A DNA stretch of 64,000 bases, from the NCBI GenBank assembly GCA_043228905.1, contig JBHGNT010000012.1, positions 11,904,001 through 11,968,000 on the forward strand, in the 5' to 3' direction. The stretch comes from Azolla caroliniana. Taxonomy: Eukaryota; Plantae; Polypodiophyta. Each line of letters starts with the position of its first letter. Position 1 is the first letter of the stretch. Below the pieces are notes generated by a model. That model was not told the origin of the DNA. It was given only the letters and a program-made list of their open reading frames with translations, and searched no databases. Below are positions 19,424 to 64,000 of the stretch, piece by piece. The translations under genes were made by a program, and so were the position numbers.

Positions 19424-20600
19424 AAGTGGAACTGGTGTATGTTTCGACGAATCGGCAGGTGGCCAATATCTTCACCAAACCCCTCAGCTTAGACAAGTTG
19501 TGGCAATTTTCTGGTACACTGGGTGTGCAATACCTCGATATGCCAAACTTGAGGGGGAGGAATGAAAGGAGGAATGAGGAAGATGACCGAAAAGCCGAGT
19601 CGGAAACTGATTTCGATTTCGACCCGACTGAAGAAGTTGGAGTGCACGAGACGGTTGAAGAAGCCGAGACCAGATGTAGGGGGAGCCACCGGAACAGAGA
19701 GCCCAAGCTGAAGCTAACCAAAAAAGGGGGAGGCAAAGCCGGGAAGACCAAGACATGGACATGGTCCGATGTTGTGAAGGGACTGAAGATTGAGGACGAA
19801 TTGGAGATAGCCAATTCGGACAAGAGCTGGAACGAATCAGAGTTACCCAATTCGGAAGCGGTGCTTGATTCGGAGGAGCTAGATCAACTGAAGGCCGAAC
19901 GGACAAGGAGGCAGCGGAAGTCGACACAGACACGGAGGAACTGACGGGTGAAGACACACTGGAGTCGCAACATCGAAGGAGCTGAGAAGGGCATTTTGAG
20001 TAGTCAAGGCGACCGAGAAGGTCGAGGAGTGTGGAACCGAATGGGTTTAGGAAAGCAGAACCGGATCGCGAGCTAGGCAGGAGGATGCTAGGTGGAGCTG
20101 GAGGAGAGGACCATCTACCACAGACACATACACTGCAATTCGACCTCAAGTTGAGCTTGAGGGGGAATGTTGAGTGGACAAGCTCAACCGGATCTAAATC
20201 GGCTAAACAAGTCAGAGCCAGATCGGAGTCTGGAACAAAGAACCAGATTGGTTTCCAGATGGTATCCGGAACAAGGAGCCGGATCGGAGAGCCAGATCGG
20301 ATTGGAACCGGTTGGCCGTTAGAGGCCTACGAATCTAGCCAAGTATGTAGGCATATTTTTAGGAGTCAGTGTCAGTCGCTCATATGATCATTGAAGTACT
20401 TGTCAATACTTTTAAGGACTTGTATAAAAGTGCTCACTGAGCACATTGTATGTACAAAGCATTATTATTTTGAATTGAGTTTATGTTGTTCTGCTCTCTC
20501 TGTCTCTCCTGCTCTCTATCTCTGTGATTCAAGCTTCCATTAAACCTTGTCTCTGTTTTTTGTTGCTATCTGGATAAACCAATTTGTCAAAGCTTCTACA
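19424..20600 (+). mobile_element. Element D: 3' end of a Copia (RNase H end, Pol extension, 3' LTR ~20168-20600)
   Basis: QVANIFTKPL..NLRGR runs in frame into the extension; PPT 20156-20167; LTR start resembles those of E and G. Confidence 0.82.
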
Positions 20601-21227
20601 TATTAACTTTTATAGATACCAGCCCACCTCGGGGGGTACTAGAGGATTCAGAAATAGTCACAATGTCGTACTCATATTCGAGATACAACGAGGAAGACGA
20701 CGTGGAGGCACACGTCTACGCTTTCCTCACAATGTGGCAAGCTAAGCATATGCCCCAACGCTTGGCTGCAACGATGCGTTAACATAAAAAATCGCCGAGT
20801 TCAGCTTGTCACTCATAGGAGAAGCAACGAACTTGTACTCCCAACATGACTTGGGAGAGTTCCCGTCATTTCAATTGCTTCGGGATAGATTTATTTAGCT
20901 CTTCCATCAATAGATCCCCAAGCGGGAACTAATGAGCTAGTTCAACACCATGTCCCAGGAACCTCAAGAATTGGTTCCATAGTTCATCATTAGGTTTCAA
21001 AACTTACGATGGAAGTTGGCACGACAGATCCCGGTAGACTAACTAAAGGATGCATTTCTCATAGCTCTCTAAGAGTCACTCTAGACAACCTTGGCGTTGG
21101 TCGACTTTTCACGAAACTCGATCTAGTAGGTCATCGATCATGTCTTAACCATGGACAACGTCCAAAACAGTAACAACCTCTCGTTGTCCTCACTACAACA
21201 CGCCTTGCCGAAAGAAGAAGACTTTTG

Positions 21228-24200
21228 TGTAAACGAAGCTGCGGTGTACATACAACGTGCTCAACAACACTATTTATACAAGTCCTAAGAGGATTGACAA
21301 AAGTACGGTGTACTTCAATCCTCACACGAGCGTCTGACACTAACTACGAGACATTAACTACTTGGTAATCTAGGCTGCTACTAAGCTTTTGGTTACTGTT
21401 GGATCCGGCTAACCGGCTCCCTAGCTCACCGGCTCACCGATCCGGCTCATTCTTCTGGATGCCGATCCGGATCCGGTTGAGCTTGCCGCTCAACACTCCT
21501 CCTCCAGCTCAACTTGAGGTCAAATCGTAGTGTCAGTCTCCATGGTAGCCGGTCCTTCCACTCAGCTCCTTTTGGCATCACTTTGTCTCGCTAGCGCTCC
21601 TCATTCAATCCGGTCTGGTTTGCCGTGACCATTCTGATTCTGATTTTGCGCACCTTGACCTCCTCGGTCAGCTTGTCTGCTCAACATGCCCAATTCATCT
21701 CCCTCGCTGCTGTGACTTCGACGCTTGCCAATTCACCGATTCCTTCGTGTTGGCGTCGACTTTCGTTGCCTTCTCGTCCTCTTGGCTTTGAATTGATCCG
21801 GTTCTTCCGAATCCATCTGTTGAACCGAATCGGTTGTCTCCGATTCATTCCAGCTCTTGTCCGAATTGGTCGCTCCTAATTCGTCTTCCGGTTCCAGGCC
21901 CTTCACCACATCCGACCATGTTCGGGTCTTGGCCTTCTTCTTTCGGTCGGCCTTGTCCTTCTTGACTCTGCCGCTTGTTTTGACTTGTTCGGATGTGTCA
22001 AATTCCTTTGTCGACTCGGCTCCTTTCTTCTTCTTGTCTCTCCCTTTATCGGTTCTTCCCTCACCGGCGCAATCGGCAGTTTCTTTGCCGTTGCCCGTTT
22101 AAGTGTCTTTGCCCATTCTCCCCCTCAAGTGTGGCACGTCGAAATGCTGAACACCAAGCATTTCGGTGAAGTGCTGCAACTTGTCCGATCCGAGCAGTTT
22201 GGTGAAGATGTCGGCAACTTGCTGATCCGTATGAACATACCGAAGTTCGACTTGACCGCTCAAGTCACGCTCACGCACGAAGTGGTAGTGCACTTCTATG
22301 TGCTTTGTGCAAGCATGGAATACGAGGTTCTTGGTGAGCTGCATGCTGCTTATGTTGTCGCAGTACATCAAGATCGGGGTCGGCACCTCGATCCGCAGGT
22401 CTTGCAGTAGTTGCCGAAGCCAAAGGGCTTCATAGGTGGTAACGATAGCACCCCGGTATTCAGCCTCAGTGCTCGAAAGGGCCACTGTTGGCTGCTTTTT
22501 GCTGCTCCACGCAATAGCCTTGCTACCAAGGGAAAACATATAGCCGGAGGTGGATCGGCGATCCGATGCATCGCCGGCCCAGTCGGCATCAGTGTAGCCG
22601 ACTAGCTCTTCGGTTAGACCATGCTGGTATAACAGTCCCCGGTCCTTTGTGCCACTCACATATCGCAAAATTCGATGCGCGCACAGAAGGTGCTCCATAG
22701 TCGGCTTCTACATATATTGGCTGATCACGCCGACTAGATAACTGATGTCGAGTTGGGTGATTGTCAAATATATAAGGCTTCCGACGATTTGTCGGAACTG
22801 CTTCTCATGGCAGGCCGGGACGGAGCTTCTGGTTCCGGTCTAGGGGTGTGGAGATCGGTCAGCATTCCGTCATGCTGAACTTGTACAACATATGTACAAC
22901 ATATTCAACACATAATGTCTTTGTGAGAGCAATATGCCGTCGGGGGTTCGGATCACCTCGATCCCAAGGAAATAGTGAAGGTCCACCATGTCCTTCATCT
23001 CAAATGCGTCCGATAGTTGGGACTTGACTCGGCTGATTTCATCGAGTCCGGGTCCCGTGATAATTAGATCATCAACATACAACAAGATGCAAACCGAACC
23101 ATCCAGACCTTGTTGGGTGAACAACGAAGAGTCGGACTTGGAGGCCGCAAACCCCATCTTACGCAACCGGTGCATGATCTTCGCATTCCAAGCTCGGAGG
23201 GCTTGCTTCAGGCCATAAAGTGACTTCTTCAGCCGGTATACCGCCGACTTGTTCATCTCCGACTGGAAACCGGGGTGTTGGGTCATAAAGACCTCTTCTT
23301 CAAGATAGCCTTGAAGAAATGCATTCTTCACGTCCATCTGGTGAAGATGTCACCCCCTTGCCACAACACCCGCGAGCACCACACAAACCGTCGTCATCTT
23401 CGCTACTGGAGCGAAGGTCTCGTCGTAGTCGATTCTGTGGGTCTGCGTGTATCCCTTCGCCATTAACCGGGCCTTGTACTGGTTAAGCAAACCATCGGCA
23501 TTGTACTTTACCTTGTACACCCACTTACATTCTGAACGGTTTACAGTGTCGGGGAGGATCAACTAGGTCCCATGTGTCGTTGGCATCTATTGCCCGCATT
23601 TCTTCCTCCATAGCAGCATGCCAATTTGCGTCCTTTGCCGCTTTTGCATAGCTCTCTGGCTCATGCACTTCCGCCACCTTGGTCATGTACGCATAGTGAT
23701 GCGCCATGTACTCATTGTACCCGTACTGCTTCACGTGGTTCTTTTGGCGGGAAGAGTGGCGTAACTTATCGTTACCTGGTTCGGTCTTCGTTCCCGAAGA
23801 TCCGCCTTCTTCCTTACCGGAGTAGGATTCGCTCTGATCCGACTCATCATTGCCGGTTTCGTATTCCGGCATCTTCATCTTCCCCTTTTCTTTGCGTGTG
23901 AACCGTCTCCTCGGTTCCTTGCGCGGGGAGAGCATGACAGAGTCTCCACTACTTGCCAGTTCCTTATCCGACTGGTCATCCCGACTCAGCCGCTCCTTCG
24001 GTCCACTTAATCGAAACAATTCCGAACTCACATCTAGAGTCTCGAACCCTTCATCTTCTAACTGGACCGGTTCAGGCTCACTAGCCTCATCCTTCGGTAT
24101 CGGGTCGGGGTCGGAAGTCGGAGCCGGTAAGGCATACCATGATGTCATCTCATCAAACTCAACATCCCGGCTAACTCGGACCTGCTGCATCCGGGGGTTA

Positions 24201-26938
24201 TAACACTTATACCCCTTTTACTCATGCGAGTAACCAACCAGGATGCATTTCTCCGACTTCGCATTCAACTTCCTCCGCTTCTCATCTGGCACATGCACAT
24301 ATGCAATGCTACCGAATATCCGAAGGTGTCTCAAATTCGGCTTGCGCCCAAAATACAGCTCATGCGCGGACACCTTGTCACCGATCCGGTTTTGGATGTA
24401 GACGGCCATCAGAACTGCCTTGGGCCAGTAGAAATGGGGCAAGCCCTTCTCCTCTAGCATTGCGCTTGTCGCGTCGACAATCAACTTGTTCTTCCTCTCG
24501 GCCACACCATTTTGTTCCGGTGTGTACCTGCAACTGAATTCTCTCCGAATTCCGTTCTGTTGCAGATAACTGTTGAATTGGCCGGAAAATTATTCTTTTC
24601 CGCCATCCGACCGTAGGCACTTGATCTCCCTCTCAGTTTCCCATTCAACCAGGCTTTGCAGGTTCTGGAAACACTCGAATACTTCGCTCTTCCTCTCGAT
24701 GAGGTAGATCCACGTGTGCCGGCTGTAGTCGTCGATGAAGAAGACGAAATACCAACTCTCGCCAAGACTAACGTTTTGTGTTGGTCCCCATACATCCGAA
24801 TGAATAAGGTCGAGCTTGTTATGGTTATGGTTTCGTTTGGTGGGGAACAAAAGCCAGTTTTGCTTCCCGAGTTGGTAGGCTTCACAAATTTCGGCCTTCT
24901 GGCGGCTAAATTTCGGCAAACCGAAAATGACTTGTTTCAATTGCACGTCTTGAAGCCTCCGATAATTAACGTGGCCAATCCTCTTGTTCCAGAGATCGAT
25001 GTACGATTCAATCTTCTGTCCTTTGGCGAACAAAGCGGTGCCGACGTTATTGGTGTTGAGGATGAACATCCTCTCGTCTCTGCGCCCTTGCACAACAATT
25101 TGGCCCTCTTCCTCGATGAAGCACCCAAGGTTCGTAAACCGCACCTGCATCCCCTGGTCAACGATCTGACCGACTGACACTAGGTTCTTCGTGATAGTCG
25201 GAACGTGTAATACGTTCATCAGCTTCCCCCTCTGTCCGACGTGGCATAAAGGCACTTCTCCGACATGCACGATTGGGTGAGGAGTGTCGTCTCCGATTTC
25301 GATGACTCCCGGTTCTTCTGGTTTCCCCAAGAAGGAGAACCACTTTATGTGGCTCGTCATGTGATTCGACGCACTGAAATCAACGTACCACACTTCCTAC
25401 GATTTGGAAGTGGTCTTATTCATCGAGTTAGCCTTGTGTTTCATCACCAAGGCTGGCCTGGCCCTTTACCGGCTTTTCCGGTTTTGGGTCCTCCCGATCC
25501 TTCTGCGTAGTGCGAGTATTGCCGGTTCTCTCTGCCGGCCTTGCCAGATCCGGATCTGTCCGAATCGGTGCGTTTCTTCCAACACTCGCTTTCTCTATGT
25601 CCTTTTTTACCACAATACCAGCATTCCGTGTCGGCCTCCGGTGCCACCTTGACTCCCCTTGCTTGTGGAGGGTTCAGAACTGTTGTCGGCACGTTCTCTA
25701 TGCCTTCGGTCCTGCTCTTGCCGGCTGCTACCATTGTGAGCCGACCCACCTTGTCGACCATGCCCATGGGGCCGATCCACCTCCGTGTACAACATCTGGC
25801 TGTCGGTGGGTGCACTTGGTGACGCACCGGCGTGGTTCTCCTCTACAAGGAGCATCAATTGTAAGTCGAAAAATGACGACGTATTCTCCCTTGTACATAC
25901 TGTCGATCGAAGCGCTTTGAACTTAGATGCTAGGCCCCCAAAACAGATCTGCACCATCTCATCTTCCTCTACAGTGACGTTGATAGAAGCAAGTGAGTCA
26001 CAAATCTCTTTGATTCGGGCCGTGTAATCGGCTACTGACATGTCCTTTTGTCGGACATTGCTCAACTCCTATCGGAGTTGCAGCTTCCGGGCCATAGTGC
26101 TTGCCGCGAAAACCTTCTTCAGGTTTCCCCAAGCTTCTTTTGGCGTCTTAGCATCTCAGACATGGCTCAACAGCTAGTCTCCGACACTTGACGTAAAGCA
26201 GTATATCACTCTACTTGTCGCTTGTTCCCACAATGGGAAGTCCTTGTGTGCCGTAGCAGGTGCTGTGTCGTTAGCTCCGTCGACATAGCTCCAGTAACCA
26301 TGGCCAAGTAGGTATTGGTGCATCTTGTATGACCAAGATGCGTAGTTGGATCTGACGAGCTTCTCCACTGGGAGCGAGCTAGCCATTCCTCTGTCCATCA
26401 CTTCTCTTTCTGTTCTTACCGGGTCTTAGGGTTTGTCTTCAGATGCTGATGTCGGCTGTAGAGGTTCTCAACCCTAACGCTCTGATACCATGTAAACGAA
26501 GCCGCGGAAGCGTTAGACAACCGACTTAGACGAATAAAAACAAAGAGAGAGAGAGAGAGAGAGAGAGATTAACACACAGAGTGTATGCTGGAGAGACAGA
26601 GAATGAGTAGAACGTTAAAAATCTATTACAAAACAATAATGGTTCTCTGTACATACAACGTGCTCAACAACACTATTTATACAAGTCCTAAGAGGACTAA
26701 CAGAAGTACGGTGTACTTCAATGCTCACATGAGTGTCTGACACTAACTACGAGACATTAACTACCTGGTAATCTAGGCTACTACTAAACTTCCGGTTATT
26801 GTTGGATCCGGCTAACCGGCTCCCCAGCTCACCGTCTCGCTTGCTCACCGGCTCACCGATCAGGCTCATTCTTCCGGATGCCGATCCGGCTCAGGCTTAT
26901 TCAGCCGATTTAGATCCGGTTGAGCTTGCTACTCAACA
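21228..26938 (-). mobile_element. Element E: full-length decayed Copia
   Basis: LTRs 21228-21495 (internally deleted) and 26491-26938; PBS 26479-26490; TSD TTTTG/CTTTG; fragmented gag-PR-IN-RT-RH. Confidence 0.92.
21500..26401 (-). pseudogene. gag-pol: gag-pol of E plus C-terminal extension, with many stops and frameshifts
   Basis: ORF-track fragments carry CWYCGKKGHRESEC, IHSDVWG, YVDD, ADIFTK motifs. Confidence 0.9.
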
Positions 26939-27158
26939 CTTTGGTTTCGACAGGCCGTGCAATGCACGACGTGCTTGAATCCGGGCCATTCAACGATTGA
27001 GTGCACAATGAGGTCGCACTATCCAATTTGTCACACAATGATCTCATGTGGAGTGACGACCGGTTCTGCGAACCGGCTTGCTTTCAGGATAACAATCGAC
27101 GCCGATACGAGGAACGCTTTCGACTAGTGGAGGATGTATATAGCGTGAGCACTACAAT

Positions 27159-27254
27159 TGTATGCCTTATCTCCTCTCTACCCTAGGCTCTCTAGCATAC
27201 TTATGGCGCCTAGGTATGCCAGATGGCCTAGGGTAGAGAGGAGATAAGGCAACA
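27159..27254. mobile_element. ~95-bp palindromic MITE-like insertion in gag of K
   Basis: Arms TGCCTTATCTCCTCTCTACCCTAGGC / GCCTAGGGTAGAGAGGAGATAAGGCA; flanked by duplicated AT (or ACAAT). Confidence 0.6.
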
Positions 27255-29087: not shown

Positions 29088-29127
29088 TGTAAACGTAAGT
29101 GTTTCCGGAAGCGTAAAACAGAGAACA

Positions 29128-29175
<48 letters not shown>

Positions 29176-32100
29176 AGAGAGCAGAACACAATTTCAAAAT
29201 TATATCAAGACTCTGTGTTTACACACTGTGCTAAGTAGCACTATTTATACAAGTCCTCTTGGGACTGACAGAAGTACCATGTACTTCAATGCTCACACGA
29301 GCATCTGACACTTACTACGAGACTATAGATACCTAACAGTCTATCCTATTCTAGGCTTCCGATTGGACTGCCGGTTACGGATTCCACCCGGCCTCCACTG
29401 CTTGCCGGTTCGGTTGCTCACCGTCATACCGATCCGTTTCGCCCGATCCGTCTCGCTTACCGGCTCCGGTTGAGCTTGCCGCTCAACACTCCCCCTCAAG
29501 CTCAACCTGAGGTGGGGTCGTAGTGTCGACCTCTGTGGCAGTCGGTTCTTTCAACCAACTTCTCCTGGCATCACTCCGCCTTGCTCGCACTCCTCGTCCG
29601 GTTCGGTCCCGTTTGCCGCGACCCCTTTGGTTCTGTACGCCTCGACCCTCTCGGTCGGCATGTATGCTCAATAGGCCCATCTCAACACTCACGTTGTTGT
29701 GACTCCGGCGCTTGCCGATCCGTTGGTTTTCCCACGATGGCATCGACTTCCGCTGTGTCCGTGTCCCCTTGGCCTTCAATCGATCCGACTCATCCGGGTC
29801 CATCTGTTGATCCGAGTCAGCTGTCTCCGACTCGTTCCAGCTCTTGTCCGAATCGGTACACTCCGATTCGACTTCCGGCTTCAGGCCTCTCACCACATCG
29901 GACCACTTCTGAGTCTTGGCCTTCTCCATGCTTCCCTCGGCTTCTTCAGCCGGTGAACCGAAATCGAATTCCTCATTCGACTCCGCATCATGCAGCATGC
30001 ACTTCTCTTCCTGAGTGCACAACTCTTCTTCACAGCCACTTGCTCCGACTTGTTCGGATGTGCCGACTTCCTTCGTCGACCCGGCTTCCTTCATCTTCTT
30101 GTCTCCTCTTCTTCTGGCTCTCCTCTTACCGACGGGTTCAACAGGTTTTTTTGTCTTTGCCAGTTTCGGTAGAGACTTTGCCCTTGCTTCTCCCCCTCAA
30201 GTGCGGCACGTCGAGATGCTGAATACCAAGCATGTCAGTAAAGTGCTGCAACTTGTCCGATCTGAGCGGCTTGGTGAAGATGTCTGCAACTTGCCGATCC
30301 GTATGAACATACCGTAGGTCAACTTCACCGCTCAGGACCTGCTCACGCACGAAGTGGTAGTGCACCTTGATGTGCTTTGTGCGAGCATGGAACACAGGGT
30401 TCCTGGCGAGCTGCAGGCTGCTCATGTTATCGCAGTAAATCGGGATCGGGGTCGGTACCTCGATCCGCAAGTCTCGCAGCAGTCGCCGAAGCCAGATAGC
30501 TTCACAAGTGGCTACGGTGGCGGCCCAGTACTCAGCCTCAGTGCTTGACAAAGCCACTGTGGGTTGCTTCTTACTACTCCACGCAACGGTCGCGCTACCT
30601 ATGGAGAACATGTATCCGGAAGTGGAGCGGCGATCAGACGCATCACCGGCCCAGTCAGCATCTGTGTAACCGACAAGCTCTTCGGGTATACCTCGCCGGA
30701 ATAGCAGACCCTGGTCCTTAGTGCCGCTGACATACCGTAATATTCGTTGCACGCATTGAAGGTGCTCCACGGTCGGCTTCCGCATGAACTGACTTACCAT
30801 GCCGACCGGATAGCTGATGTCGGGTCGGGTGATGGTTAAGTAGATCAGGCTTCCGACAACTTGTCGGAACCGTTTCTCATTGCAGGCCGGTCCGGAGTTG
30901 GGACGGAGCTTCTGCTTCCGGTCTAGGGGTGTGGAGAAGGGTCGGCAATCCGTCATGCCGAACTTATACAACATATTCAACACGTAATGTCGTTGTGAGA
31001 GCAATATGCCGTCGGGGGTCCGGATCACTTCGATCCCAAGAAAATAATGAAGGTCCCCTAGGTCCTTCATTTCGAATGCGTCCGACAACTGGGACTTGAC
31101 GCGGTTGATTTCGGGAAGACCTGGTCCGGTGATGACTAAATCATCCACATACAAGAGTATACATACCGGACCGTCAGAGCCTTGCCGGATGAATAACGAA
31201 GAGTCCGACTTAGAGACAGCAAACCCCAGCTTACGCAATCGGTGCGTGATCTTCGTGTTCCAAGCTCGGGGGGCTTGCTTCAAGCCGTAAAGCTACTTCT
31301 TCAGTCGGCATACCGCCGACTTGTTCATCTCCGAGTGAAATCCGGGGGGTTGAGTCATAAAGACTTCTTCTTCAAGCTCTCCTTGAAGGAAGGCGTTCTT
31401 CACATCCATCTGGTGAAGATGCCACCCCCTTGCCGCAGCAACCGCCAGTACCACACGAACCGTCCTCATCCTCGCCACAGGAGCGAAGGTCTCATCGTAG
31501 TCGATTCTGTGGGTCTGCGCGTATCCCTTCGCCACTTACCGGGCTTTGTACCGGTTAACAGAACCGTCGGCGTTGTACTTGACCTTGTACACCCACTTGC
31601 ATCCGATCGGTTTACAGTGACGGGGAGGATCAACAAGGTCCCAAGTTTCGTTGGCATCGAGTGCCCGCATTTCTTCGTCCATAGCGGCACGCCAATTCGC
31701 GTCCTTTGCCGCTTCTGCGTAGCTCTCCGGCTCACGCACTTCTGTCACCTTAGTCATGTACGCATAATGATGCGCCATGTATTCATTGTACCCGTACCGC
31801 ACGACGGGATCCTTCTGACGGGTTGATCGACGCAACGCACCGTCACCTGATTTGAGGCCCTTCTTGGCCAGTTCGGTCTTCGTTGCCGAAGATCCGCCTT
31901 TCTCCTTTCCGGAGTCGGATACGCACCGATCCGACTCATCGTTGCCGGTTTCGAATTCCGGCATCTTCCTCTTCCCCTTCTCTTTGCGCGTGAACCGTTT
32001 CCTCGGTTCCTTGCGCGGGGAGAGCACAACAGAGTCTCCACCACTTGCTGTCTCTTCATCCGACTGGTCCAACCGACTCAGTCGCTCGTTCGGTCCACTC

Positions 32101-34636
32101 AACCGTAACAATTCCGGACTCTCATCTTGAGTCCCGGCTTCATCATCCTCTGCCAGGGCTGATTCAGGCTCACTGGCCTGATCTTCCGGCATTGGGTTGG
32201 GATCGGATGTCGGAGTCGGTATGGAGTACCAGGATGCCGATTCGTCGAACTCGACATCCCGGCTAACTCGGACTTCCTTCGTCCGGGGGTTATAGCACTT
32301 ATACCCCTTTTGCTCTTCAGCATAGCCGACTAGGATGCATTTTTCCGATTTTGCATCCAGCTTTCTCCGCTTCTGATCCGGCACATGCACATACGCTATG
32401 CTGCCGAATATCCGAAGGTGTCTCAAGTTCGGCTTGCGCCCGAAATACAGCTCATGAGCTGACACCTTGTCACCAATGCGGTTTTGTATGTAGACGGCCC
32501 TCTGGACCGCCTCCGCCCAGTAGAACCGGGGCATGCTCTTTTCCTCCAGCATTGCCCTTGCCGCTTCGACGAGTGTCTGGTTCTTCCTTTCGGCCACACC
32601 GTTTTGCTCCGGTGTGTATCTGCAGCTGAACTCTCGCCGAAATCCCTTCTGTTGCAGATAACTAGTGAATTGGCCAGAAAAATATTCCTTTCCGCCATCC
32701 GATCGAAGGCATTTGATCTTCCTCTCCGATTCCCGTTCCACCATCTTCTGGAGGCTCCGGAAACAGTCGAAGACTTCGCTCTTCTGTTCAATGAGGTAGA
32801 TCCAAGTATGTCGAGTATGGTCGTCGATGAAGGAGACGAAGTATCTGCTCCCGCCAAGGCTTACACTTTGTGCCGGTCCCCACACATCCGAATGGATGAG
32901 ATTGAGCTTGTTACAGCTCCAGTTCCGTTCGGTGGGGAATGGAAGCCGGTGTTGCTTCCCAAGTTGGCAGGCTTCACAAATTTCGGCTCTCCGGCCGCTG
33001 AACTTCGGCAAACCGAAAACGACTTGTTTCGTTTGCAGGTCTTGAAGCCTCCGGTAGTTGATGTGGCCTATCCGCTTGTGCCACAGGTCGATGTCCGACT
33101 CGACCTTCTGTCGTTCCGCGAACAGAGCGGTGCCTAAGTCATTGGTGTTGAGGATAAACATCCTCCCGTCTCTGCGCCCTTGCGCAATGACTTCGCCCCC
33201 ATCCTCAATGAAGCACCCGAGGTGTGTAAACCGTACCTGCATCCCCTGGTCGACAATCTGACCGACGGACACCAGGTTCTTCGTGATTGTCGGAACGTGT
33301 AATACGTTCATCAGCTTCCCTTTCTGTCCGACGTGGCTTAGAGGGACTTCTCCGAAGTGCACGATTGGGTGAGGAGTGTCGTCTCCGGTTTCGACTACTC
33401 CTGGTTGATCCGGTTTCTCCAGAAAGGAGAACCACTCTTTGTGGCTCGTCATGTGGTTCGATGCGCCGGAATCAACATACCACACTTCCTCCGTTTTGGA
33501 AGTGGTCTTCTTCATTAAGTTTGCCTTGTGATTCATCACCAAGGCTGGCCCCTTACCGGCCTTTCCGGTTCCGGATCCTCCTGATCCGTTTGCGTAGTGC
33601 GAGTTTTGCCGGCCATCCTTACCAGTCTTGCCGGATCCGGATTTGTCCGAATCAGCACGCTTTCTCCAACACTCACTTTCCTTGTGGCCTTTTTTGCCAC
33701 AGTACCAGCATTTTGTAGCAGATTTGTCTTGCCGGCCTCCGGCACCGCCTTGACTCCCTCGGCTTGTGGAAGTCCCGGAACTGCTGTCGGCACGCTCATA
33801 GTGCCTCCGTTCCTGCTCTTGCCGGCCGGCCGCCTCCATTGCGTGCCAACCCACCTCTTCCATCACGCCCACGGAACCGACCCGTTCCCGTGTACAGCAT
33901 TCGGTTGTCCGGGGATGCACTGGTATATGCACCGGCGTGGTTCTCCTCTATAAGAAGCATCGACTGTAAGTCGAAGAATGAGGGGGTATTCTCCCTTGTA
34001 CACACCGCAGTCCGGAACGCTCTGAACATGGACGCCAGGCCTCCGAGACATACCTGCACCATCTCATCTTCCTCTACGGTAACATTGAGAGAGGCGAGCG
34101 AGTCGCAGATCTCCTTTATCCGACCCATATAGTCTGCCACGGACATATTCTTCTGTCGAACATTGCTCAACTCATGTCTGAGTTGCAGCTTCCGGGCAGT
34201 GGTGCTTGCGGCGAAAACCTTTTTCAGGTTCCCCCAAGCATCCTTCGGTGTCTTGGCGTCACGGATGTGGCTGAGCAGCTGATCATCGACACTGGACGCG
34301 AAGCAGTACATCACCCTGCTTGCCGCCTGTTCCCATACCGGGAAGTCCTTGTGTGCCGAGTCTGGCGCCGCATCATTCGCTCCTTCGACATAACTCCAGT
34401 ACCCGTGTCCAAGAAGGTACTGGTGCATATTGTAAGACCAAGATGCGTAGTTGCTCCTGTCAAGCTTCTCCACCGGGAGCGACGTAGCCATGCCTCTATC
34501 CATGTCTTCTATTGTGTCTGTTTTCGACCTGTTAGGGTTTTCTTCTCAAGAGTAAATGTCTGCAGCAGAGGTTCTCAACCCTCGCGCTCTGATACCATGT
34601 AAATGTAAGTGTTTGCGGAAGCGTAAAACAGAGAAC

Positions 34637-34680
<44 letters not shown>

Positions 34681-35024
34681 GAGACAGAGAGAGCAGAATA
34701 CAATTTCAAAATTATATCAAGACTCTGTGTTTACACATTGTGCTAAGTAGCACTATTTATACAAGTCCTCTTGGGACTGACAGAAGTACCATGTACTTCA
34801 ATGCTCACACGAGCATCTGACACTTACTACGAGACTACAGATACCTAGCAGTCTATCCTATTCTAGGCTTCCGATTGGACTGCCGGTTACGGATTGCACC
34901 CGGCCTCCACTGCTTGCCGGTTCGGTTGCTCACCGTCATACCGATCCGTTTCGCCCGATCCGTCTCGCTTACCGGCTCCGGCTTATTCAACCGATCCGGC
35001 TCCGGTTGAGCTTGCCGCTCAACA
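29088..35024 (-). mobile_element. Element G: near-intact Copia, same group as E
   Basis: LTRs 29088-29488 and 34598-35024; TSD AGATG at 29083-29087 and 35025-35029; PBS 34586-34597; PPT 29489-29500. Confidence 0.96.
29483..34503 (-). pseudogene. gag-pol: gag-pol of G with C-terminal extension; a few stops and frameshifts
   Basis: ORFs 33796-34503, 31536-33932, 31293-31535, 30138-31283 and 29483-30094. Confidence 0.93.
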
Positions 35025-36494: not shown

Positions 36495-36499
<5 letters not shown>

Positions 36500-41400: not shown

Positions 41401-41424
41401 ATGTCTGAATTCCCTTGAGTGACA
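38413..41424 (-). pseudogene. pol: Inverted pol of I: RT, RNase H, integrase, chromodomain
   Basis: YLDD, EADASD, MDFITDLP, YEVAAILDS..YLVDWLGYPPSDRTWEP motifs. Confidence 0.93.
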
Positions 41425-53558: not shown

Positions 53559-54298
53559 AGATGTTGAGGTATTCCTCGCGGATGCGTGGAATGAGGCGCG
53601 GCCTCGGGGTCTTGTACCGAAGAGCAAGAGACAAAGGAGAAGGGAAGGGACCCACTACGAGTGGGCGTAGATTCACAGGGACACGGCCCTTCGACACAAA
53701 GACGCGAGTGGGACACGACGCAGAGAGACACGAATGTATGTATATATATATTAACAAGGACAAGCAACAAGAAGCACGAAGTCGGTTACAACCGAACAGG
53801 CCAGCGAACAGATGCTGATGCCTATTCGTAAACGCTCAGAAAGAAAGGAGTAGGTGGGAGGTGCTGCCGGAAGCACTCGGGCATTCCTCAGAGCAGCGCG
53901 AGCCTCCCCGAAACCCTGCACAGAAAGAAGCTACGGATTATGGAAGAGAGAGAAGCCTTCGGTCCGCAACCCGACAGCACTTCATCCTCTCTTCGCGCGA
54001 TCCCTCACTCCTCCTCGTCTCCCTCCTTTTATAGGCAAGAAAGGAGCCATTTCCCATTAACTACCTATCGGATCTACCTACCTAGGATCTTCTATGTACT
54101 ACATAAGACGCACGTGCATGAAGAGCCGGTTCCTACGCTCCGGTGCACCGATTCCGCTTGTGGACGGTTTTCTTCACGACATCGTAACGTTAGTATTCAT
54201 CCTGTTTTTCACATTAGTCATCTAAAACCATTTTTAGGCTTTGGTGATAACACCATCACAATCCAAGATCTTGTAACATTAGAGGATTTTTCTTACAA

Positions 54299-55012: not shown

Positions 55013-57719
55013 CATCTATTCAAGGGGCCTAGGAAGAGGTATAAATATGAGGCTTAGCTACCCTCGTAAGCAAATCATGTCAGAAGGCTGTTGTCTTAGG
55101 CACTGGTGGTGTGGGCTAGGCTTTCGTCTCAACGATCGTGTTGATCTCTTCCAAGGTATTAGTCATCCTAATATCCGATGGTTTGGGAGGTTGGTGGTAA
55201 GTTGGCTATGTCTAGATCATAGTTAGGGGGTGGTCGGGTGGAACGGGTTCTTCTATCCAATCTATTTTCCTTCTTTTTACTTTATTTTGGTCTATTGATT
55301 AGTAATCAATTCTTAACACACCCACTGCGTAACAGCTCTCAGTCTAATTCGAAACCTTGAATTCATACTCGGACATGTGTTTTCGATCTCGGCGATCGTT
55401 CTATGTCTATAAGGATTGGGCGCGTACACGATTCTACTCGGCAGACCATGGCTTCGGACAACTAACATCAAGCAGAATTGGCAACAAAATGTCATCACCT
55501 TCCGCCGAGGTAAGACAAAAATTCAGGTCCCGACCGAAGAGCGAACAACGACAACCAAGGAAACAACACCACTCTATGCCAAGGGATAGCATTTGCTCGA
55601 TGGGTTGGCCGATGACGAAGTTGACGAATACTTGGAAGAAAACCCGAAGAACATACCACTTCTTGAAATTGATGTCATTGAAGCAATCAGCCCATAAGTG
55701 TCCGAGGGGGACACTGAGGTGGAGGAGACCTTAAGGGAAGCAAACCCTAAATCGGTGGACGAATTACGTCATGCCCATGAAGCACTTGAGCGGGAAATGA
55801 CTATCTCCCTACAAGTGAAAGCCTCAACAATGGAAGAAGTCAATCTAGGCACAATCGACGACCCTCGGCTGATTAACATCGCTAAAGAGTTGGCACCGAC
55901 TGAGAAATCGGCAATGGTAGATCTATTAAAAGAATACAAAGATGTATTCGCATGGTCATACGGTGACATGCACGACCTCGACCCCAGGTATCATCAGCAC
56001 TAGATACATCTAAATAAAGACGCTAAACCAGCATAGTAGCGGTGGTACCGTATGAATCCAAATTACGTGGCCAAAGTAAAAGATGAAATTGACAAACTAC
56101 TACAAGTCAGTTTTATACGACCAGTTAAACAAGCCACATGGCTTAGTCCAATTGTGGTGGTGCCAAAAAGGAATGGGAAAATCCGAGTTTGTGTCGATTA
56201 TAGGAAACTCAATGTTGCAATAATCACATATGCATTCCACTACCCTTCACCAACGACATACTGGATGTAGTAGCGGGAGACAAGATCTACAACTTCATGG
56301 ACGGGTTCAGTGGCTACAATAAAATCCAAATGCACCTGGATGACCAAGAAAAAATGGCATTCATCACGGAATGGGGCATTTTTATGGTAGTCATGATGAT
56401 GTTCAATCTCAAAATAGTGCCTACCACCTTCCAAATGAATCATCATGGAAATCTTTGGGGACTACATTCCCGCATTCATGCAAATCTTTTTAGATGATTT
56501 CGTAGTATATGGGCATCAAATTGAGCACCTCGACCACTTGCTCCTCTGCCTAGACAAATGCCAAGTAGCCCGACTAAGCTTAAATCCTACGAAATGTGCA
56601 TTTAGTGTCACTAATGGGGTACTACTCGGACATATAGTCCGTTGAGAAGGGATCGCGGTGGATCCCGACAAAGTCAAAGCCATACTCGAGGCTCTAGCAC
56701 CGAAAACCATGAAAGCCTTGAGCCGATTCTTAGAACAAATTCAGTGGCATAGCCGAATGCTCCGCTACCTAACCAATTTTGCAACACCCCTACATGCGGT
56801 AGTTCACCGTACGCCGTTTCGATGGAACCCCATTGAGGAGAGGGCATACAAAACTATAAAAGAATACATGCGGAAGCGTATACGAAAGATACAAAGTATA
56901 ATCGGTTGTCCGAAACACAAAGAAATGGATACACAGTGAGAGAGAGACTGACTCTCAGTACATACAATGTGCTCATAGAGCACTTTTATACAAGCCCTGA
57001 CGAGTGGGTTGACACAAGTACCATCAATACTTTAATACTCATAGATGAGCCTGGCACTAACTCTACCTATAATATTCCTATTTACTAAAAATGGGAATAT
57101 AGGCCCCTAACGGCCTTCTGGCTCCCCACCGATCATGCCTAGCCGACCGGTTTCCATCTGATCAGGCTCTCGGCTTTTTCAGCCAATTCGAGCCTAACCG
57201 ATCGGTTTCCATATGATCCAGTTCTCAGCTTCTTCAGTCGATCCGGCCCAAGTTGAGCTTGCACGTTCAACACTCCCCCTGAAGGTCAACTTGAGGTTGG
57301 CTCGTTCTGTCAACATCTACTGATTCTGGCCTCCGACTCCTCCTGGCATCTTCATGCCTTGCTCGTGCTCCTCGTGTGGTCTGGTCCCATGTTCCATGAC
57401 CCCTCCGGTTCTGTGCTCCTCGACCCCTACAGTCGATATGTATGTTGTCCAGGCCCTTCTCAAATTTCTCACTATTGTGATATCGGCGCCCCTCGACCCA
57501 TTGGCTCCTTCGTATCGGCATTGGCTTCGGCTACCTCCTTGTCCGCTTGGCCTTCATATGATTTGGCTCTCCTGAATCAAACTCCTTGATCGAATCGGCT
57601 ATCTCTGATTCCTCTTCCATCTTTTCTGAATTGGCTATCTCCAATTCACCTTTCTTCTGGCGTTTGATCACATCTACGCATGTCTTGGTTCTGGCCTTCT
57701 TCTTTTGGTCGGCTCTGTC

Positions 57720-60700
57720 TGTTGGGGACAAGGTCGTCAGTGCGGAAGAACAAACAACATCTGTGATGTTGAAGGACCTGTGTATGAGAATGAACAAGAT
57801 ACACACTGAGAGAGAAAGAGAGAGAGAGATAGGCACAACGAAACATTTTATTTCTTAATAGCAACAGTTACAAATGACAACCAACCCTTTTACTAAAGGT
57901 TACAAAGTCACTTTATATAGTGATTATCCTAGGGCAATTTCCCTTTATGCTATTTACAGAAATAGCCCAAACTTGGGCTATCCAAAGGGACAGTGTGAAT
58001 ACGGCCATTATACACTCATATTCGACACTCCCCCGTAATGGGCGTATACATGGGTTATCTGAAATTACACGTATATACAAGGTTTATCGGATAGATCGGT
58101 TTTGTTCGAGTCAGCAAGATCTCAAGACTGAAGACTGAATCGGTCCTGTGTTGTGTGTCTGACTTTAACTGGACCGATTTTTCGTTACGCCCATCTGGTG
58201 CCGAAAGGACCAGAAACGATCCGCCGAAAGACACTTGGTCATTCCATCTGCGACATTATCAGTTGTGGATATCTTCTCGAGACCGATTTTCCCTAAAATG
58301 ACGCAATCCTGAACAAAGTGATATCGAATGTCGATATGCTTGGAGGCGTTGTGGTGAACCTGATTTTTTGACAAAGCAACAACACCCTGATTATTGGTGT
58401 AGACAACTGGAGCCGAGTCGAGGTCAACTTGTCGAAACGTGTGCGCCAACCGACCGAGCCATAAAGCTTCTTTTGCCGCGTCAGACGCAACTACATATTC
58501 CGCTTCGGTCATTGAGGTGGTTGTGCACTCCTGAAGGTTCGACTTCCACAAGATTGCTCCATTGCCAAATTTGAAACAATATCCGGTTGTTGATTTCCGA
58601 CTGTCCACACAACCGGCGAAGTCCGAGTTGGTGTAACCGACTATGCCTGAGGTTGAGTTCGAGCCAAAGAGAATGTCGTGGTCTTTTGTGCCAGCTAGAT
58701 ATCTGAACACATGCTTGACTGTGTTCCAGTGCGATCGGCCTGGGTTGTGCATGAATCTGCTAACGACTCCTACGGCATGAGAAATATCAGGCCATGTCAC
58801 GACCATCGCGTACATAAGGGAGCCGACTGTCGGTGCATACGGTACCGACTTCATATCTTTCCCCTCCGGATCGGATGTCGGGCAGTCTCGTTGAGACAGC
58901 CGAAGGGTAATGGGGAGTGGGGTCGAAGCAGACTTGGCCGAGTACATGTTGAAGCGTTCCAAGACACGGCTGATGTAGTCGGTTTGAGACACAAAAAGTT
59001 GTCGTTTATCGCGATGCTGACTAATCTTCATACCAAGTATGTGTCTTGCCGGACCGAGGTCCTTCATGGCAAATTTCAACCGCAGTTTTCGAACGAGTTC
59101 GGTGAGCTCTCAGGCATGTCAGCCGGAGAGTAGCATGTCGTCCACGTAAATGATGAGGAAGATGGGAGACCCGTCTTGAGCTGTTTTGGTGAAGAGACAG
59201 TGGTCCTCATCTCTTTTGGAGAAGCCGACCGACTGGATGAAGTCGTCAAACTTCTTGTACCACTGTCGGGGTGCCTGTTTCAGGCCGTATAAACTCTTCC
59301 TGAGTCGGCAGACTAGATGTTCCTGGACGGATGCCACAAAGCCTTTCAGCTGCTCCATATAGATTTCCTCCTGTAGGTCACTGTGGAAGAATGTCGTTTT
59401 TACATCTAGTTGAATCAACTCCAAGTTATCGGCGGCCACGACACCGAGCATGAAACGAAGGGTTGTCATTTTCACCACTAGTGAAAAGATTTCGTCGAAG
59501 TCAATGCCATATTCTTGTCGAAATCCCTTCGCAACTAATCTGGCCTTGTACTTTGGGTTGGTCAAGTCAGACGTCTCTTTTGGTCGATAGACCCACTTAC
59601 ACTGAAGAGCACGTCGATTCTCAAGTAATTCGACCAAGTCCCAAGTCTTGTTTGCACGAATGGAGTGCATTTCCGACTCCATCACCAGATGTCAGGTGGC
59701 TGAGTCGGTAGATGCGGATACTTCTTCATAAGACGTCGGTTTGCCGGCGTCGGTAAAGAAAATTCTGGGAGAGTACCTTTCCGGAGGTTTTGACAGTCTC
59801 TCGGATCTTCGAGCTATGACTAGACTGGTCACACCGGGTATAGGTGTCGGATGGTCGGAAGCCGAGCCATTCAGTTGTGCTGAATCGGTGGATTCAGGAC
59901 GGGAGGTGTCGGTTACCCATGAAACCGATCTCGTGTTGTGGGTTGGGCCTTCATGAAGGGTTGGCACTTCGGAAAATATTACCCCTCGGACTTCAATAGG
60001 CCTTTCGACCGTTTTATGCATAGCTGACTCGTTGAACACGACGTCTGAACTTCGGACGATTTGTCTATGCTCGGAGTCCCAGAGTCAGTATCTGATCTCG
60101 TAGTCGGGTCCATATTCAAGGAAAATGCACTTCCTTGATCTTGGTTCGAGTTTCTAGCGGTCGTCTTTCGAGATGAGGGCATACGCCTTGCAGCCGAAGA
60201 TCCTCAGCTTGTCATAATTCGGCTTACTACCGGTCCATGTTTCCTGAGGTATTTTAAGTCCTAGAGGTCTACTTGGTGACATATTTATTATGTGTACTGT
60301 CATAAGTAGACCCTCCGTCCAGAAGCCATCCCACAGTCCGGAGTGTTGGAGCATGGATATTATGCGTTCTTGAATCGTCTGATTCATGCGTTCAGCAATT
60401 CCGTTCTGCTCCGGACTATAGGGTGCCATATATTCACGTCGAATGCCGCGTTCCCGGCAAAATTTGACGAATTCGTCAGACTTGAATTCTCCTCCATTAT
60501 CGGTTTGGAGACATTTTAGTTTCCGACCGGTTTAGTTTTCGACCATTGCAAGCCATTCAGAGAAGATCGAGAACACCCGATCTTTGTTTCTAATGGGGTA
60601 AGCCCACACCTTCCGAGTCGAGTCATCAATAAAATTGACGAAGTACAAAGCACTGTCGAGACACTGATGTGGCATTGGGCCACAAACGTCCAAGTGGACC

Positions 60701-63115
60701 AAATCGAGGGGACTCGATTCTCTTGGTGCTGATGTCGGGTGTGATGCGGCTACCTGTTTGCGCAATGCTCGCAGAATTGGTGATCCGAGAAGGAGAGCTT
60801 GGGGATGTAACCGGCTCTAGATAAGTGCGTTATGCCGGCCTTGCTGAGGTGTCCAAGTCGTCCTTGCCATAACGATGACACGGGGATATCAACCAAAAAT
60901 AAGTCACCCTCTTTGAGTGTGACATATAAAGGGTACAAAGAGTGTACCTTTGGTCCTCGAGCAAGCAGGAGGTTCCCTTTGTGGAGTGTCCACCTCCTGA
61001 TGAGAACCTGGCATGGATGCCGGCTTCGTCAAGTTGTCCAACTGAGATCAAGGGTCTTGAAAGCTTAGGAACGTGTTGGACGTTGTGTAGTACGAGTGTA
61101 GAGCCACCCGGAAGGTTGAGCTCTCCGGTGCCGATTCCGATTCTAGCACAGTGAGAGTTCCCGACTCGAACTAAGTCGGAGTGTCGGTCCGAGTATTGCC
61201 GAAACTGAGATTGTTGAGGTGTCACATGATACAATGCGCCCGAGTCTAGGAGCCATGTGCTCGATTCCTCAATCGTAAGCAGAACTTCTGATTCGACTCG
61301 GTTCTCTATGGACAGTATGTTCGGGTCGATCGTCAAAATTTCGGCTGAAGAGCCGACGTAGTTGACCTCCTCATGCTGGCTACTCTTTTGATTCTCTCTC
61401 TGAGCTTTGTCGGTTTTTGCTTTGAGTGCCCGGCAATCGGCTTTGATATGTCCTAGTTTCTTGCAGTAGTTGCAGATTCGATTGTCCCGAGACTTGCTCC
61501 GGCTTCGCTGAGTGTTCGGTGGTTGGGAAGAACTTCTTCCCCGGTTGTTCGGTCAGTCGGTCGAACCTTGTACTACGTAAGCTTCATCTGCTGAGTCTTT
61601 GGCGAAAGACTTTCTCTGAGCTACTTCAGTCAGGATTGCGCTCGTGATTTCGGAGTACTTAATGGTAATTGTTGAAGCACTGCACACGGTTGTGACGAAA
61701 GTTTCCCAAGAAGAGGGGAGACTACTCATGAGTATCATTGCTCTGAGCTCATCCTCTATTGCCTTCCCCTGAGACGATATTTGGGAGCTTAGGCTTTCGT
61801 ACTTGTTGAGGTGTCCCTGAACCGAATCGGATTCTTTCATTCGCAAGTTGTAGAGGTGCCGAATCAGATACATCTTCGTTGCGACAACCTTCTTTTCATA
61901 AGTTTCTGATAGTGTTTTCCAAAGTTCAAAAGCTGTCGAGCATGATTGCACTGTGAAGTACACTGACTCCGACAAGTGCATCCGAATCGTGGCGCGGATG
62001 ATTCTGTCCAGCTTTAGCCACTCGTTTGCCTTGTATGCTTCTGGAGGATTATCATTCTCAATCGGGTCTATCTGACCCTTGACTATGAGATAGTCATGCA
62101 TTTGTTCCTTCCAAAAGTTGAAGTTCGAACCGTCGAACCTCCTTAGACTCATCTCCGATGAGCCGGATGTTGATGCCATCTGATTTGGTTTCAGTTGGTA
62201 AGACTCTGTTCGGACTTGACTAGGAACCTTAGTTGGGTGCAGCGGGTCAACTCACCCGATATCGTTCTAGTCGGTCTTGAACCCGAGTCGGTTTGGTTTC
62301 AGATACTTGTTTGCTGAACCTTCTTAGAGAGACTCCGGTTAGCTTCCGATTGTATGCCAAATACCGATCACAAGAAACTGATTGTTTAGGCCGATTCTGC
62401 TTCGGATGACTGCAGCGATGAGAGGGACGGATCCAACTGATCCTGCCGAATGTTGATCGGCCAAATGAAGCACGAATTTGGTTGTTGCCTGGAGACCAAT
62501 CTGCAGCGGGTGGTTACAACAAGCGGGTGAATAGCGTCCGATGACCTATTCGGATGTTTAACCAAATGAAGCACGATTGGGTCGGTTGTTGCACAAGGAG
62601 CTCACCTCAAATGGTTACACTCACAAGAACAGAGTACAACCAACTAGCTTACTCCAATCACCGATTTAACACAGTGAGATGCAGACTTCTTATTTTTGTC
62701 TTCTCTCTTCTCTGTTCTTCAAGAAAAACAAAAACAGAGTGTTGTGTTGTGTACTATGATGGCCAGTATCAGGTTCAGGACCCTCCAACCCTCTGATACC
62801 AAATGTTGGGGACAAGGTCGTCAGTGCGGAAGAACAAACAACATATGTGATGTTGAAGGACCTATGCATGAGAATGAACAAGATACACACTGAGATATAT
62901 ATATATATATATATATATAAGCACAAAGAAACGTTTTATTTCTTAATAGCAACAGTTACAAATGACAACCAACCCTTTTACTAAAGGTTACAAAGTCACT
63001 TTATATAGTGACTATCCTAGGGCAACTACCCTTTATGCTATTTACAGAAATAGCCCAAACTTGGGTTGTCCAAAGGGAAAGTGTGAATACGGCCATTATA
63101 CACTCGTATTCGACA
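57720..63115 (-). mobile_element. Element J: full-length decayed Tnt1-like Copia
   Basis: LTRs 57720-58027 and 62804-63115; TSD CTGTC at 57715-57719 and 63116-63120; iMet PBS 62791-62801; PPT 58028-58034. Confidence 0.95.
58165..62179 (-). pseudogene. gag-pol: gag-pol of J, fragmented
   Basis: FDGSNFNFWK, WLLDSGA, PEQNGIAER, YVDDML, KHIDIRYHF motifs. Confidence 0.92.
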
Positions 63116-64000
63116 CTGTCCTTTTTTACTCTACCGCCAATCCTGCCATTTTCAGCGCTGACTTCCCCTTTGTCAATTGGCTCCGACTTCGGCCCGTTCT
63201 TTCAGCCACTCCCCCTACATCTGGCTCGTCTCCACTTAACCAATCTTCTTCCATTTGTCCACACGTCCGACATGTCCTCGGCTTCTTCAGCCGATTTGGA
63301 CGTTTTAACTCCTTCACTCGTTCCAAATCAAATTCTACATTTGGTCCGACTCTTGGACATCATCTCTCTCCATCTTTCGAACTTCACTCCTCCCCCTCAA
63401 GTTCAGCATGTCAAGGCGCGTAAGACAAGCATGCTTGAAAAATTCCGCAAATTGTCTAGGCCGAGGGGTTTGGTGAAGATATCGGCAGCCTGCCGATCCG
63501 TTGAAACATACACCAGTTCGACTTCACCGGAGAAGACTCTCCCACAGACAAAATGATAGTGCACCTCGATGTGCTCTTTCTAGGCATGGAAGACAGGGTT
63601 CTTCGCAAGTTGGATGTTTCTAAGGTTGTCGTAGTATATCATTGTTGGTTCAGACACCTCCATTTGCAAATCCCTTAACAACCTCTTGAGCCATATGGCT
63701 TCGCATGTCGCAACATGCTCTCCTCGATATTTGGCCTCATTGGTCGACAATGCAATGGTCGGTTGCTTCTTATTGCTCCGGGGGATCGCGGCACTTCCCA
63801 ATGAAAACATGAATCTGGATGTTGACTTGCAATCGCCGACATTTCCCGAAGAAGTTTACACCATCCAGGAACCCTCTTCATCCAGCCTAGTCATCATCTA
63901 TGTAGTCAAGAAGTTGTTCAGCTACGCCTATCTGATACAACAATGCCCTATCCTTAGTGCCGCTAACATATCTCAGGATCCTTTGTGCACACTGAGGTTG

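What the first reader, a model, noticed from the sequence alone, without database searches (positions are those of the whole stretch)
19424..63401. Copia group with a conserved ~200-codon extension after RNase H, bracketed by two PPT copies
Seen: in D (19548-20167), E (21496-22129), G (29489-30201) and L (57273-63401, split by J), Pol does not end at the usual LRG/PPT. It continues 600-700 bp through a charged region with a shared block: K(A/T)KTxxWSDVV(K/R)GL..E.E...(N/D)SDKSWNESE...D..E.D..KA..TR.QRKS (more degraded in L). D reads in frame from RNase H. E has a single TAA where G has GAA, and G has a 1-nt slip in an A-run. CTTGAGGGGGAG occurs at the RNase H end and the same or a near-identical tract occurs beside the 3' LTR. 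By contrast, B ends at its single PPT. Inference: this is an extra RT-RH tail domain (short interaction motif plus basic NLS-like patch) that could affect targeting or particle assembly. The upstream PPT could be a second plus-strand primer.
Basis: partly seen in the sequence, partly recalled or inferred. Interest (0 to 1): 0.72.

Follow-up and report, generated by a model that had tools for sequence, protein, structure and literature searches.

The report
Copia polymerase tail over hairpin array
A family of plant jumping genes with thousands of copies extends its polymerase reading frame about 150-245 codons past the usual end into the terminal repeat; the extra piece is predicted to be an unfolded charged tail, its most conserved stretch likely owes much to three small RNA hairpins, and it likely arose from a once non-coding spacer.

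Summary
D, E, G and L belong to a Copia clade with 2,743 exact RNase H-end/PPT matches genome-wide, of which 1 abuts an LTR. Relatives read unbroken from RNase H to a TGA inside the 3' LTR (19 of 30 G-type copies open). Selection on the frame is strong: shared length variants are in frame in 32 of 41 cases, private ones in 13 of 44. Selection on amino acids is weak to moderate (dN/dS 0.36-0.63 among G/E/D, about 0.9 against subfamily H). The WSDVV block is missing in 30 of 74 copies, and no fold, family or cellular homologue was found. The shared block overlies three 7-8-bp stem-loops with repeated compensatory changes (moderate support). A sister clade has two PPTs around a short, closed spacer, and RT/RH-less element C keeps both PPTs. 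Best reading: a cis-acting linker that became a disordered acidic/Arg-rich Pol tail. Extra PPTs and palindromes are known from Sireviruses; a stop-free fused tail was not found in six paper searches or earlier scan notes. Expression is untested.

The parts
19548..19559 (+). D upstream PPT copy (PPT1), read as L-R-G-R at the end of RNase H
19560..20155 (+). D tail; open to 19944, then stops and a frameshift (old copy)
19797..19885 (+). D three-hairpin array under the 'ELE..NSDKSWNESE..DSEE.DQ' block
20147..20188 (+). D terminal PPT (20156-20167) with inverted-repeat arms; 3' LTR starts at 20168
22118..22129 (-). E PPT1
21508..22117 (-). E tail, in register with the family, five stops
21795..21883 (-). 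E hairpin array
21476..21516 (-). E terminal PPT (21496-21507) with inverted repeat; 3' LTR starts at 21495
26491..26938 (-). E 5' LTR (93% identical over the 251 aligned nt of the 3' LTR), followed by PBS
30190..30201 (-). G PPT1
29501..30189 (-). G tail; +1 slip near the start and a 27-nt in-frame deletion, otherwise open to the TGA at 29483-29485
29782..29870 (-). G hairpin array
29469..29509 (-). G terminal PPT (29489-29500) with inverted repeat; stop codon lies in the LTR's first bases
29088..29488 (-). G 3' LTR, 392 of 401 aligned bases identical to the 5' LTR; target-site duplication CATCT
34598..35024 (-). G 5' LTR, followed by PBS TGGTATCAGAGC
63390..63401 (-). L PPT1
63116..63389 (-). 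L tail, 5' part (degraded)
57720..63115 (-). J, an unrelated Copia inserted in L's tail (TSD GACAG); single PPT after a short linker
57285..57719 (-). L tail, 3' part, with hairpin array at 57560-57648
57273..57284 (-). L terminal PPT
16237..16356 (-). Element C: two PPT copies 108 nt apart in a family lacking RT and RNase H; its 5' LTR starts at 19423, i.e. it abuts D's broken RNase H
10476..10487 (+). B single PPT (comparator; Pol stops in it)

Best explanation
In this Copia clade the gag-pol frame stays open for about 150-245 codons past RNase H to a stop inside the 3' LTR, and the region likely does two jobs at once: it encodes a tail predicted to be unfolded, acidic then Arg-rich, that likely helps RT-RNase H grip nucleic acid or reach the nucleus by charge rather than exact sequence, and its RNA likely carries cis signals (three small stem-loops, an upstream PPT copy, the inverted repeat around the true PPT). 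Shown: open frame, frame-preserving indels, no shared stops, weak-to-moderate residue constraint, no detectable fold, hairpin-forming sequence, and two PPTs also in a short-spacer sister clade and in RT/RH-less element C. Inferred: translation, tail function, folding of the hairpins as RNA, and origin by read-through of a non-coding two-PPT spacer. Only the terminal PPT has the TG attachment site and inverted repeat, so it is the primer that yields integrable DNA; the upstream one is at most auxiliary.
For: Frame: 19 of 30 G-type and 8 of 30 E-type loci fully open; one copy has a 1,688-aa unbroken frame. Shared length classes in frame 32 of 41 (modes excluded; p=6e-9), private 13 of 44, LTR control 14 of 36. 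The last 95 nt alone are 7 of 9 in frame (p=0.008), which a decay-avoidance model does not require. No column has a stop as its commonest state, against about 6 expected (rough P=0.002). Residues: net dN/dS in the tail's 3' half 0.36, 0.63, 0.40 for G-E, G-D, E-D, other sense frames above 1; third-position excess p=0.0002-0.013, persisting outside stems. Disorder: AlphaFold with 25 rows gives pLDDT 49 and one 5-residue helix; 10-14% hydrophobic residues; no membrane segment in 101 tails. Hairpins: 90% of cells paired, cells with double-sided change 39 vs 20+/-3.7; two helix-1 pairs switch 3 and 5 times on the tree; 67 held-out copies keep helix 1 at 483 of 536 pairs; family-level G-U 16 vs A-C 4. 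Origin: sister clade has spacers of 118-267 nt, closed early, lengths of mixed phase; C spacing 108 in 28 of 30 loci. No tail-less derivative among 2,743 junctions.
Against: Against subfamily H the tail has dN/dS about 0.9. The third-position excess relative to the within-family baseline excludes 1 in only 2 of 6 family pairs, and with transversions alone G-E shows none. Raw counts of residue vs silent changes in G-E equal the neutral baseline. Two of the robust covariation measures are not significant (11 vs 9.9 pairs; 31 vs 30.3 types), the strict control gave 1 of 28 stem pairs vs 12 of 1,393 others, stems were defined on the same data, and short hairpins are common along all of element G (31 in 5.9 kb). 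The RH tree leaves the order of single-PPT, short-spacer and long-tail clades unresolved. No translation or binding data exist. The function of the tail is inferred from composition only.
Confidence: 0.55

Rival explanations
1. The linker matters only as RNA/DNA; the frame is kept open so that the genomic RNA has no long 3' UTR that would trigger nonsense-mediated decay or silencing, and the peptide is a tolerated passenger.
For: dN/dS about 0.9 against H; WSDVV block dispensable; long linkers (about 470-730 nt) are open whereas short sister spacers (108-267 nt) are closed; the stop always sits at the LTR edge; long 3' UTRs are argued to expose Copia RNA to NMD (PMC5580714, passages).
Against: Third-position excess outside stems among G/E/D; dN/dS 0.20 in the WSDVV block between G and E; indels in the last 95 nt still keep frame, 7 of 9, though repeat slippage in 3-nt units could explain part of that; Sireviruses thrive with 1-2 kb linkers (PMC2829016 table).
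Confidence: 0.2
2. One reading: the tail is a conserved interaction domain (W-helix plus NLS) that targets integration or directs particle assembly.
For: The WSDVV block is the only predicted helix and is conserved G-E; basic clusters are kept; on contig C1 the clade avoids the first 5 Mb (0 of 100 and 4 of 100 vs 11 of 62 for tail-less J).
Against: Block missing in 30 of 74 copies, including a large fairly young subfamily; no family, structure or cellular homologue; the distribution hint rests on part of one contig and one comparator of different age and integrase; targeting determinants usually lie in integrase (recalled).
Confidence: 0.12
3. The upstream PPT is a second plus-strand primer and the linker exists mainly to carry it.
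For: PPT1 bases are 82-100% conserved in 45 old copies while flanks fall to 42-90% (the anchor search favours matches); it is kept in the short-spacer clade and in RT/RH-less C, whose deletion ends about 10 nt upstream of it; internal PPTs prime in Ty1 and HIV (cited in PMC2829016).
Against: It lacks the TG attachment site and the inverted repeat; 1 of 2,743 junctions is followed by an LTR start, and that one is a J-type LTR; it does not explain the open frame.
Confidence: 0.3
4. Nothing is selected: a few master copies happened to have a purine-rich, stop-poor linker, and the hairpin covariation comes from template-switch repair of quasi-palindromes.
For: The tail is only 11-16% T, so stops are rare; copies within a family share ancestry; covariation tests are mixed.
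Against: Shared vs private indel phase (32 of 41 vs 13 of 44); no fixed stop over about 246 net changes; the other sense frames carry stops and dN/dS above 1.
Confidence: 0.07

Closest known systems
Sirevirus (SIRE) linker: multiple PPTs, inverted repeat at the terminal PPT, palindromic RM boxes, env-like ORF (PMC2829016; passages and section 20 read)
   Same: Extra AGGGGGAG copy upstream of the 3' LTR that lacks the attachment site and inverted repeat; inverted repeat around the terminal PPT; short palindromes with a CGG..CCG-like core in both linker and LTR; coding capacity between RNase H and LTR.
   Different: Two PPTs, not about four; octamer abuts TG with no AT; the extra coding part is fused to pol with no stop (SIRE1 has one stop, others a separate ORF); it is hydrophilic with no membrane segment; the palindromes lie inside the reading frame.
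Ty1/Copia lineages in REXdb (PMC6317226; abstract and passages read)
   Same: Gag-PR-IN-RT-RH order in one frame, TG..CA LTRs, 5-bp TSD, PBS starting TGG.
   Different: The paper lists extra domains for Gypsy (aRH, chromodomains) and eORF-3'F mainly for SIRE, and removed ORFs fused to the polyprotein from its analysis. Of 100 RT-RH relatives with a scorable end, 92 stop within 46 residues of ADIFTK, against about 185-278 here.
Single-PPT and short-spacer relatives in metagenome contigs (L244, L245-L266, L262, L271, L277; proteins P0001, P0002, P0021)
   Same: 53-80% identical RNase H; same inverted repeat around the terminal PPT.
   Different: Either no spacer, or a 118-267-nt spacer with early stops and tandem repeats; no similarity to the long tail was detected for C's spacer.
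Central PPT of Ty1 and HIV-1 (as cited in PMC2829016; primary papers not read)
   Same: A second purine tract inside a coding frame.
   Different: Here it lies 0.5-0.7 kb, not kilobases, from the terminal PPT, and priming is untested.

Membership tests
Ty1/Copia LTR retrotransposon | Copia-type RT with integrase upstream of RT-RH | tested here: met
   RVT_2 at E=5e-86 in L029; order of window ORFs of G and E
Ty1/Copia LTR retrotransposon | Paired TG..CA LTRs, PBS, PPT, 5-bp TSD | tested here: met
   G: LTRs 97.8% identical, TSD CATCT, PBS TGGTATCAGAGC
SIRE / Sirevirus | AGGGGGAG followed by AT then TG at the 3' LTR | tested here: not met
   Octamer abuts TGTTGA; 2,753 exact matches of that junction
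SIRE / Sirevirus | Several identical PPTs in the linker | tested here: inconclusive
   Two copies here against about four on average
SIRE / Sirevirus | Palindromic repeated motifs with CGG-CCG core in LTR/linker | tested here: inconclusive
   Similar palindromes present but not compared with the paper's motif table
SIRE / Sirevirus | Env-like ORF separate from pol or behind a stop | tested here: not met
   Frame is continuous; highest 19-residue hydropathy 0.49 in 101 tails
SIRE / Sirevirus | Extended Gag with coiled coil | not tested
   not examined
Any REXdb lineage (SIRE, Ale, Alesia, Ivana, Lyco, Gymco, Bryco) | Clustering with labelled RT/RH/INT references | not testable with these tools
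   No labelled references held; the RH tree has none; the paper's supplements were not read
Bryco / Osser | PBS for half tRNA-Met | tested here: not met
   PBS is TGGTATCAGAGC; that this matches the 3' end of whole initiator tRNA-Met is recalled; criterion
Folded accessory Pol domain (chromodomain, aRH or other) | Profile or structure match; confident fold | tested here: not met
   No Pfam, PDB best E=0.61, Atlas best 0.79, pLDDT 49 and pTM 0.12
Known structured RNA family | Rfam match | tested here: not met
   0 matches at E<=1 over L029:1450-2400

The most novel reading that the evidence does not exclude
A new protein region caught being born inside a retrotransposon: a non-coding two-PPT spacer was read through, lengthened and fixed as an Arg-rich tail on RT-RNase H that recognises the very hairpins encoding it, giving the element cis-preference for its own RNA 3' end, a second plus-strand start and a bias towards chromosome interiors, and allowing expansion to thousands of copies.
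Probability: 0.15. Interest if true: 0.78.

Novelty: new variant of a known kind. Interest (0 to 1): 0.5.

Why it matters
Copia Pol almost always ends at RNase H. Here a very abundant clade has carried a 150-245-residue in-frame tail through many subfamilies, while relatives with no spacer and with a short closed spacer survive. That is a natural series for studying how coding sequence arises over cis-acting RNA. It also makes the open question of what upstream PPTs do (raised for Sireviruses) testable in a two-PPT system that includes a non-autonomous partner. It also warns that a conserved translated block can partly be the read-out of RNA hairpins.

Tried and rejected
Tail derived from an old LTR: only a 29-nt palindrome is shared, clearly in 1 of 5 copies tested (score 51 vs shuffle maximum 29; two others marginal); not supported as a whole. 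Tail duplicated from the IN-RT linker or elsewhere in G: score 28, within shuffles. C's spacer as a remnant of the long tail: best score 33 vs shuffled 24-30 on a quarter of the tails; rejected, and C matches the short-spacer clade in its PPT ending. Antisense or shifted frames: dN/dS above 1 except the antisense shadow frame. L178 as a tail-less chimera: more simply a J insertion just after PPT1, since a J PPT and a tail PPT lie 0.7 and 1.6 kb short of 6.1 kb further on. Word-indexed homologue search with the tail: none among 2,234 candidates of 412-1,313 aa. HMM search: 239 hits; the 150 listed are all 234 aa or shorter, those I read are fragments of this clade, and the 10 proteins looked up are unnamed ENA singletons, so host range is unknown. 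Single-sequence fold was uninformative even for RNase H. Expression: no RNA holder listed; laying three contig sets gave nothing usable. Charge-conservation test: no clear signal. Paper searches found no description; subscription journals and supplements were not searched.
Full report
OBSERVATION. The window is G000:C12:11904001-11968000 of a 523-Mb plant genome. The PPT 12-mer occurs 11 times against 0.31 expected and brackets a 0.6-0.7-kb stretch in D, E, G and L. B stops in its single PPT. The window copies are damaged: D is open to 19944 and then broken, E has five stops, G has a +1 slip and a 27-nt deletion, and L is split by J with a GACAG duplication.

FAMILY. Thirty best loci each for G, D, E and L were fetched. 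PPT spacing is 727 nt in 24 of 30 G-type and 625 in 20 of 30 E-type loci. 19 of 30 and 8 of 30 are open from LRG to a TGA in the LTR's first bases; 0 of 25 scorable D-type loci are (5 unscorable). One copy has a 1,688-aa unbroken frame. The RH-end/PPT1 pattern matches 2,743 times and the terminal junction 2,753 times; 1 of 2,743 is followed by an LTR start. From 90 stretches covering most of the first 100 places on C1, 75 had a terminal PPT within 1.2 kb and 54 of 75 were in frame; at least 14 others had none in range and were not counted, and part of that output was cut. This sample revealed subfamily H (about 505-556 nt), which lacks the WSDVV block, as do 30 of 74 copies.

SELECTION ON THE FRAME. 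In 170 copies (near-duplicates dropped), length classes between four anchors shared by two or more copies are in frame in 36 of 45 cases (32 of 41 without the modes), private ones in 13 of 44, and LTR classes in 16 of 38 (14 of 36) (p=6e-9, and 0.001 against the LTR). No codon column has a stop as commonest state in G, E or H, against about 6 expected (a rough estimate on copies pre-selected for at most 5 stops).

SELECTION ON RESIDUES. Net dN/dS between subfamilies is 0.17-0.21 in RNase H, 0.36/0.63/0.40 in the tail's 3' half, 0.5-1.1 in its 5' part, and above 1 in the shifted sense frames. Third positions vary most (p=0.0002-0.013), but not for transversions in G-E. Against H, dN/dS is about 0.9. 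Relative to the within-family baseline, the third-position ratio is 1.66, 1.20, 1.62, 1.30, 0.95 and 1.18, excluding 1 in 2 of 6 pairs (101 frame-colinear copies of 170). Constraint is real but weak and uneven. Silent divergence is higher in the tail than in RNase H for G-E and lower for G-D and E-D, which suggests recombination between the two parts.

THE PROTEIN. About 20% K/R, 17-22% D/E and 10-14% hydrophobic residues, with an acidic middle, an Arg-rich block and an acidic end; no membrane segment. No Pfam, PDB or Atlas relative; AlphaFold gives coil with one 5-residue helix. The HMM search returns short fragments of the same clade, 19 of 150 with the RH-end motif. Of 100 scorable RT-RH relatives, 92 end within 46 residues of ADIFTK. 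The invariant PQVELEGEC end is the read-out of the PPT and its inverted repeat.

THE RNA. The shared block sits on three stem-loops (8-bp/6-nt, 8-bp/6-nt, 7-bp/5-nt), the first two 36 nt apart. For: 90% of cells paired; double-sided cells 39 vs 20+/-3.7 (39 of 42 prepared rows, 3 with unit indels left out); helix-1 pairs switch 3 and 5 times on a tree built without the stems; more switches than control pairs (p=0.011); held-out copies keep both states; G-U 16 vs A-C 4 at family level; one compensated pair changes two residues (L/S with N/D). Against: the pair-count and type-count measures are not significant, the strict control is weak, stems were defined on the data, and hairpins are common all along G. 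I rate this as likely, not proven. A further palindrome occurs in 96 of 178 tails and 91 of 178 LTRs. No Rfam match.

PPTs AND ORIGIN. Among 80 metagenome loci most have a single PPT, four carry this clade's tail, and a sister group has two PPTs 118-267 nt apart with early stops. Element C's family lacks RT and RNase H yet keeps both PPTs, 108 nt apart in 28 of 30 loci. PPT1 lacks the TG site and the inverted repeat. The RH tree recovers the three groups but not their order (8 rows skipped), so read-through of a non-coding spacer is inferred, not shown.

DISTRIBUTION. On C1 the clade is scarce in the first 5 Mb compared with J (0 of 100 and 4 of 100 vs 11 of 62). This is one partial contig and one comparator, and cannot be assigned to the tail.

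COMPARISON. Multiple PPTs, the terminal inverted repeat and palindromic boxes are described for Sireviruses, and SIRE1 has one stop between pol and env (PMC2829016; passages and section 20 read). This clade fails two SIRE criteria and is not filed there. REXdb's survey removed ORFs fused to the polyprotein (PMC6317226; abstract and passages); its supplements were not read and could bear on lineage and novelty. The NMD argument comes from passages of PMC5580714; PMC4728375 was seen only as a listing.

VERDICT. A real, selected, dual-coded 3' extension; a new variant of a known kind; function inferred. Interest 0.5.

Noticed in passing
window 16237-19423 (minus); L121-L150: Element C is an abundant non-autonomous Copia family with gag and integrase but no RT or RNase H; the deletion runs from the start of RT to about 10 nt before the upstream PPT.
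   Followed up: partly
window 16235 downward: C's 3' LTR is interrupted just after its first bases by another insertion (TGTCGTGAAG...); L128 and L136 show similar breaks at the same place.
   Followed up: no
L178 / G000:C1:12617031: A J-type 5' LTR with PBS sits exactly behind PPT1, mimicking a PPT-LTR junction.
   Followed up: partly
G000:C988 (L032, L062, L121): A small contig repeats window C, D and E at 98-100% identity, probably an allelic or duplicated assembly piece.
   Followed up: no
window 39826-43801: A 1,599-nt inverted repeat (91%) of Gypsy pol sequence with 778 nt between the arms, within paired 296-nt repeats.
   Followed up: no
window 8621-8632: B carries a PPT-like tract (1 mismatch) in its IN-RT linker, a candidate central PPT.
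   Followed up: no
window 13122-13500: Three tandem copies of a 126-nt unit at 96-98% identity.
   Followed up: no
L160, L157/L158: Local duplications of the RNase H end with PPT1: direct in L160 (174 nt), inverted in L157/L158.
   Followed up: no
RNase H end of all tailed copies: Two further conserved short hairpins (6 and 5 bp) lie 168 and 97 nt upstream of PPT1.
   Followed up: no
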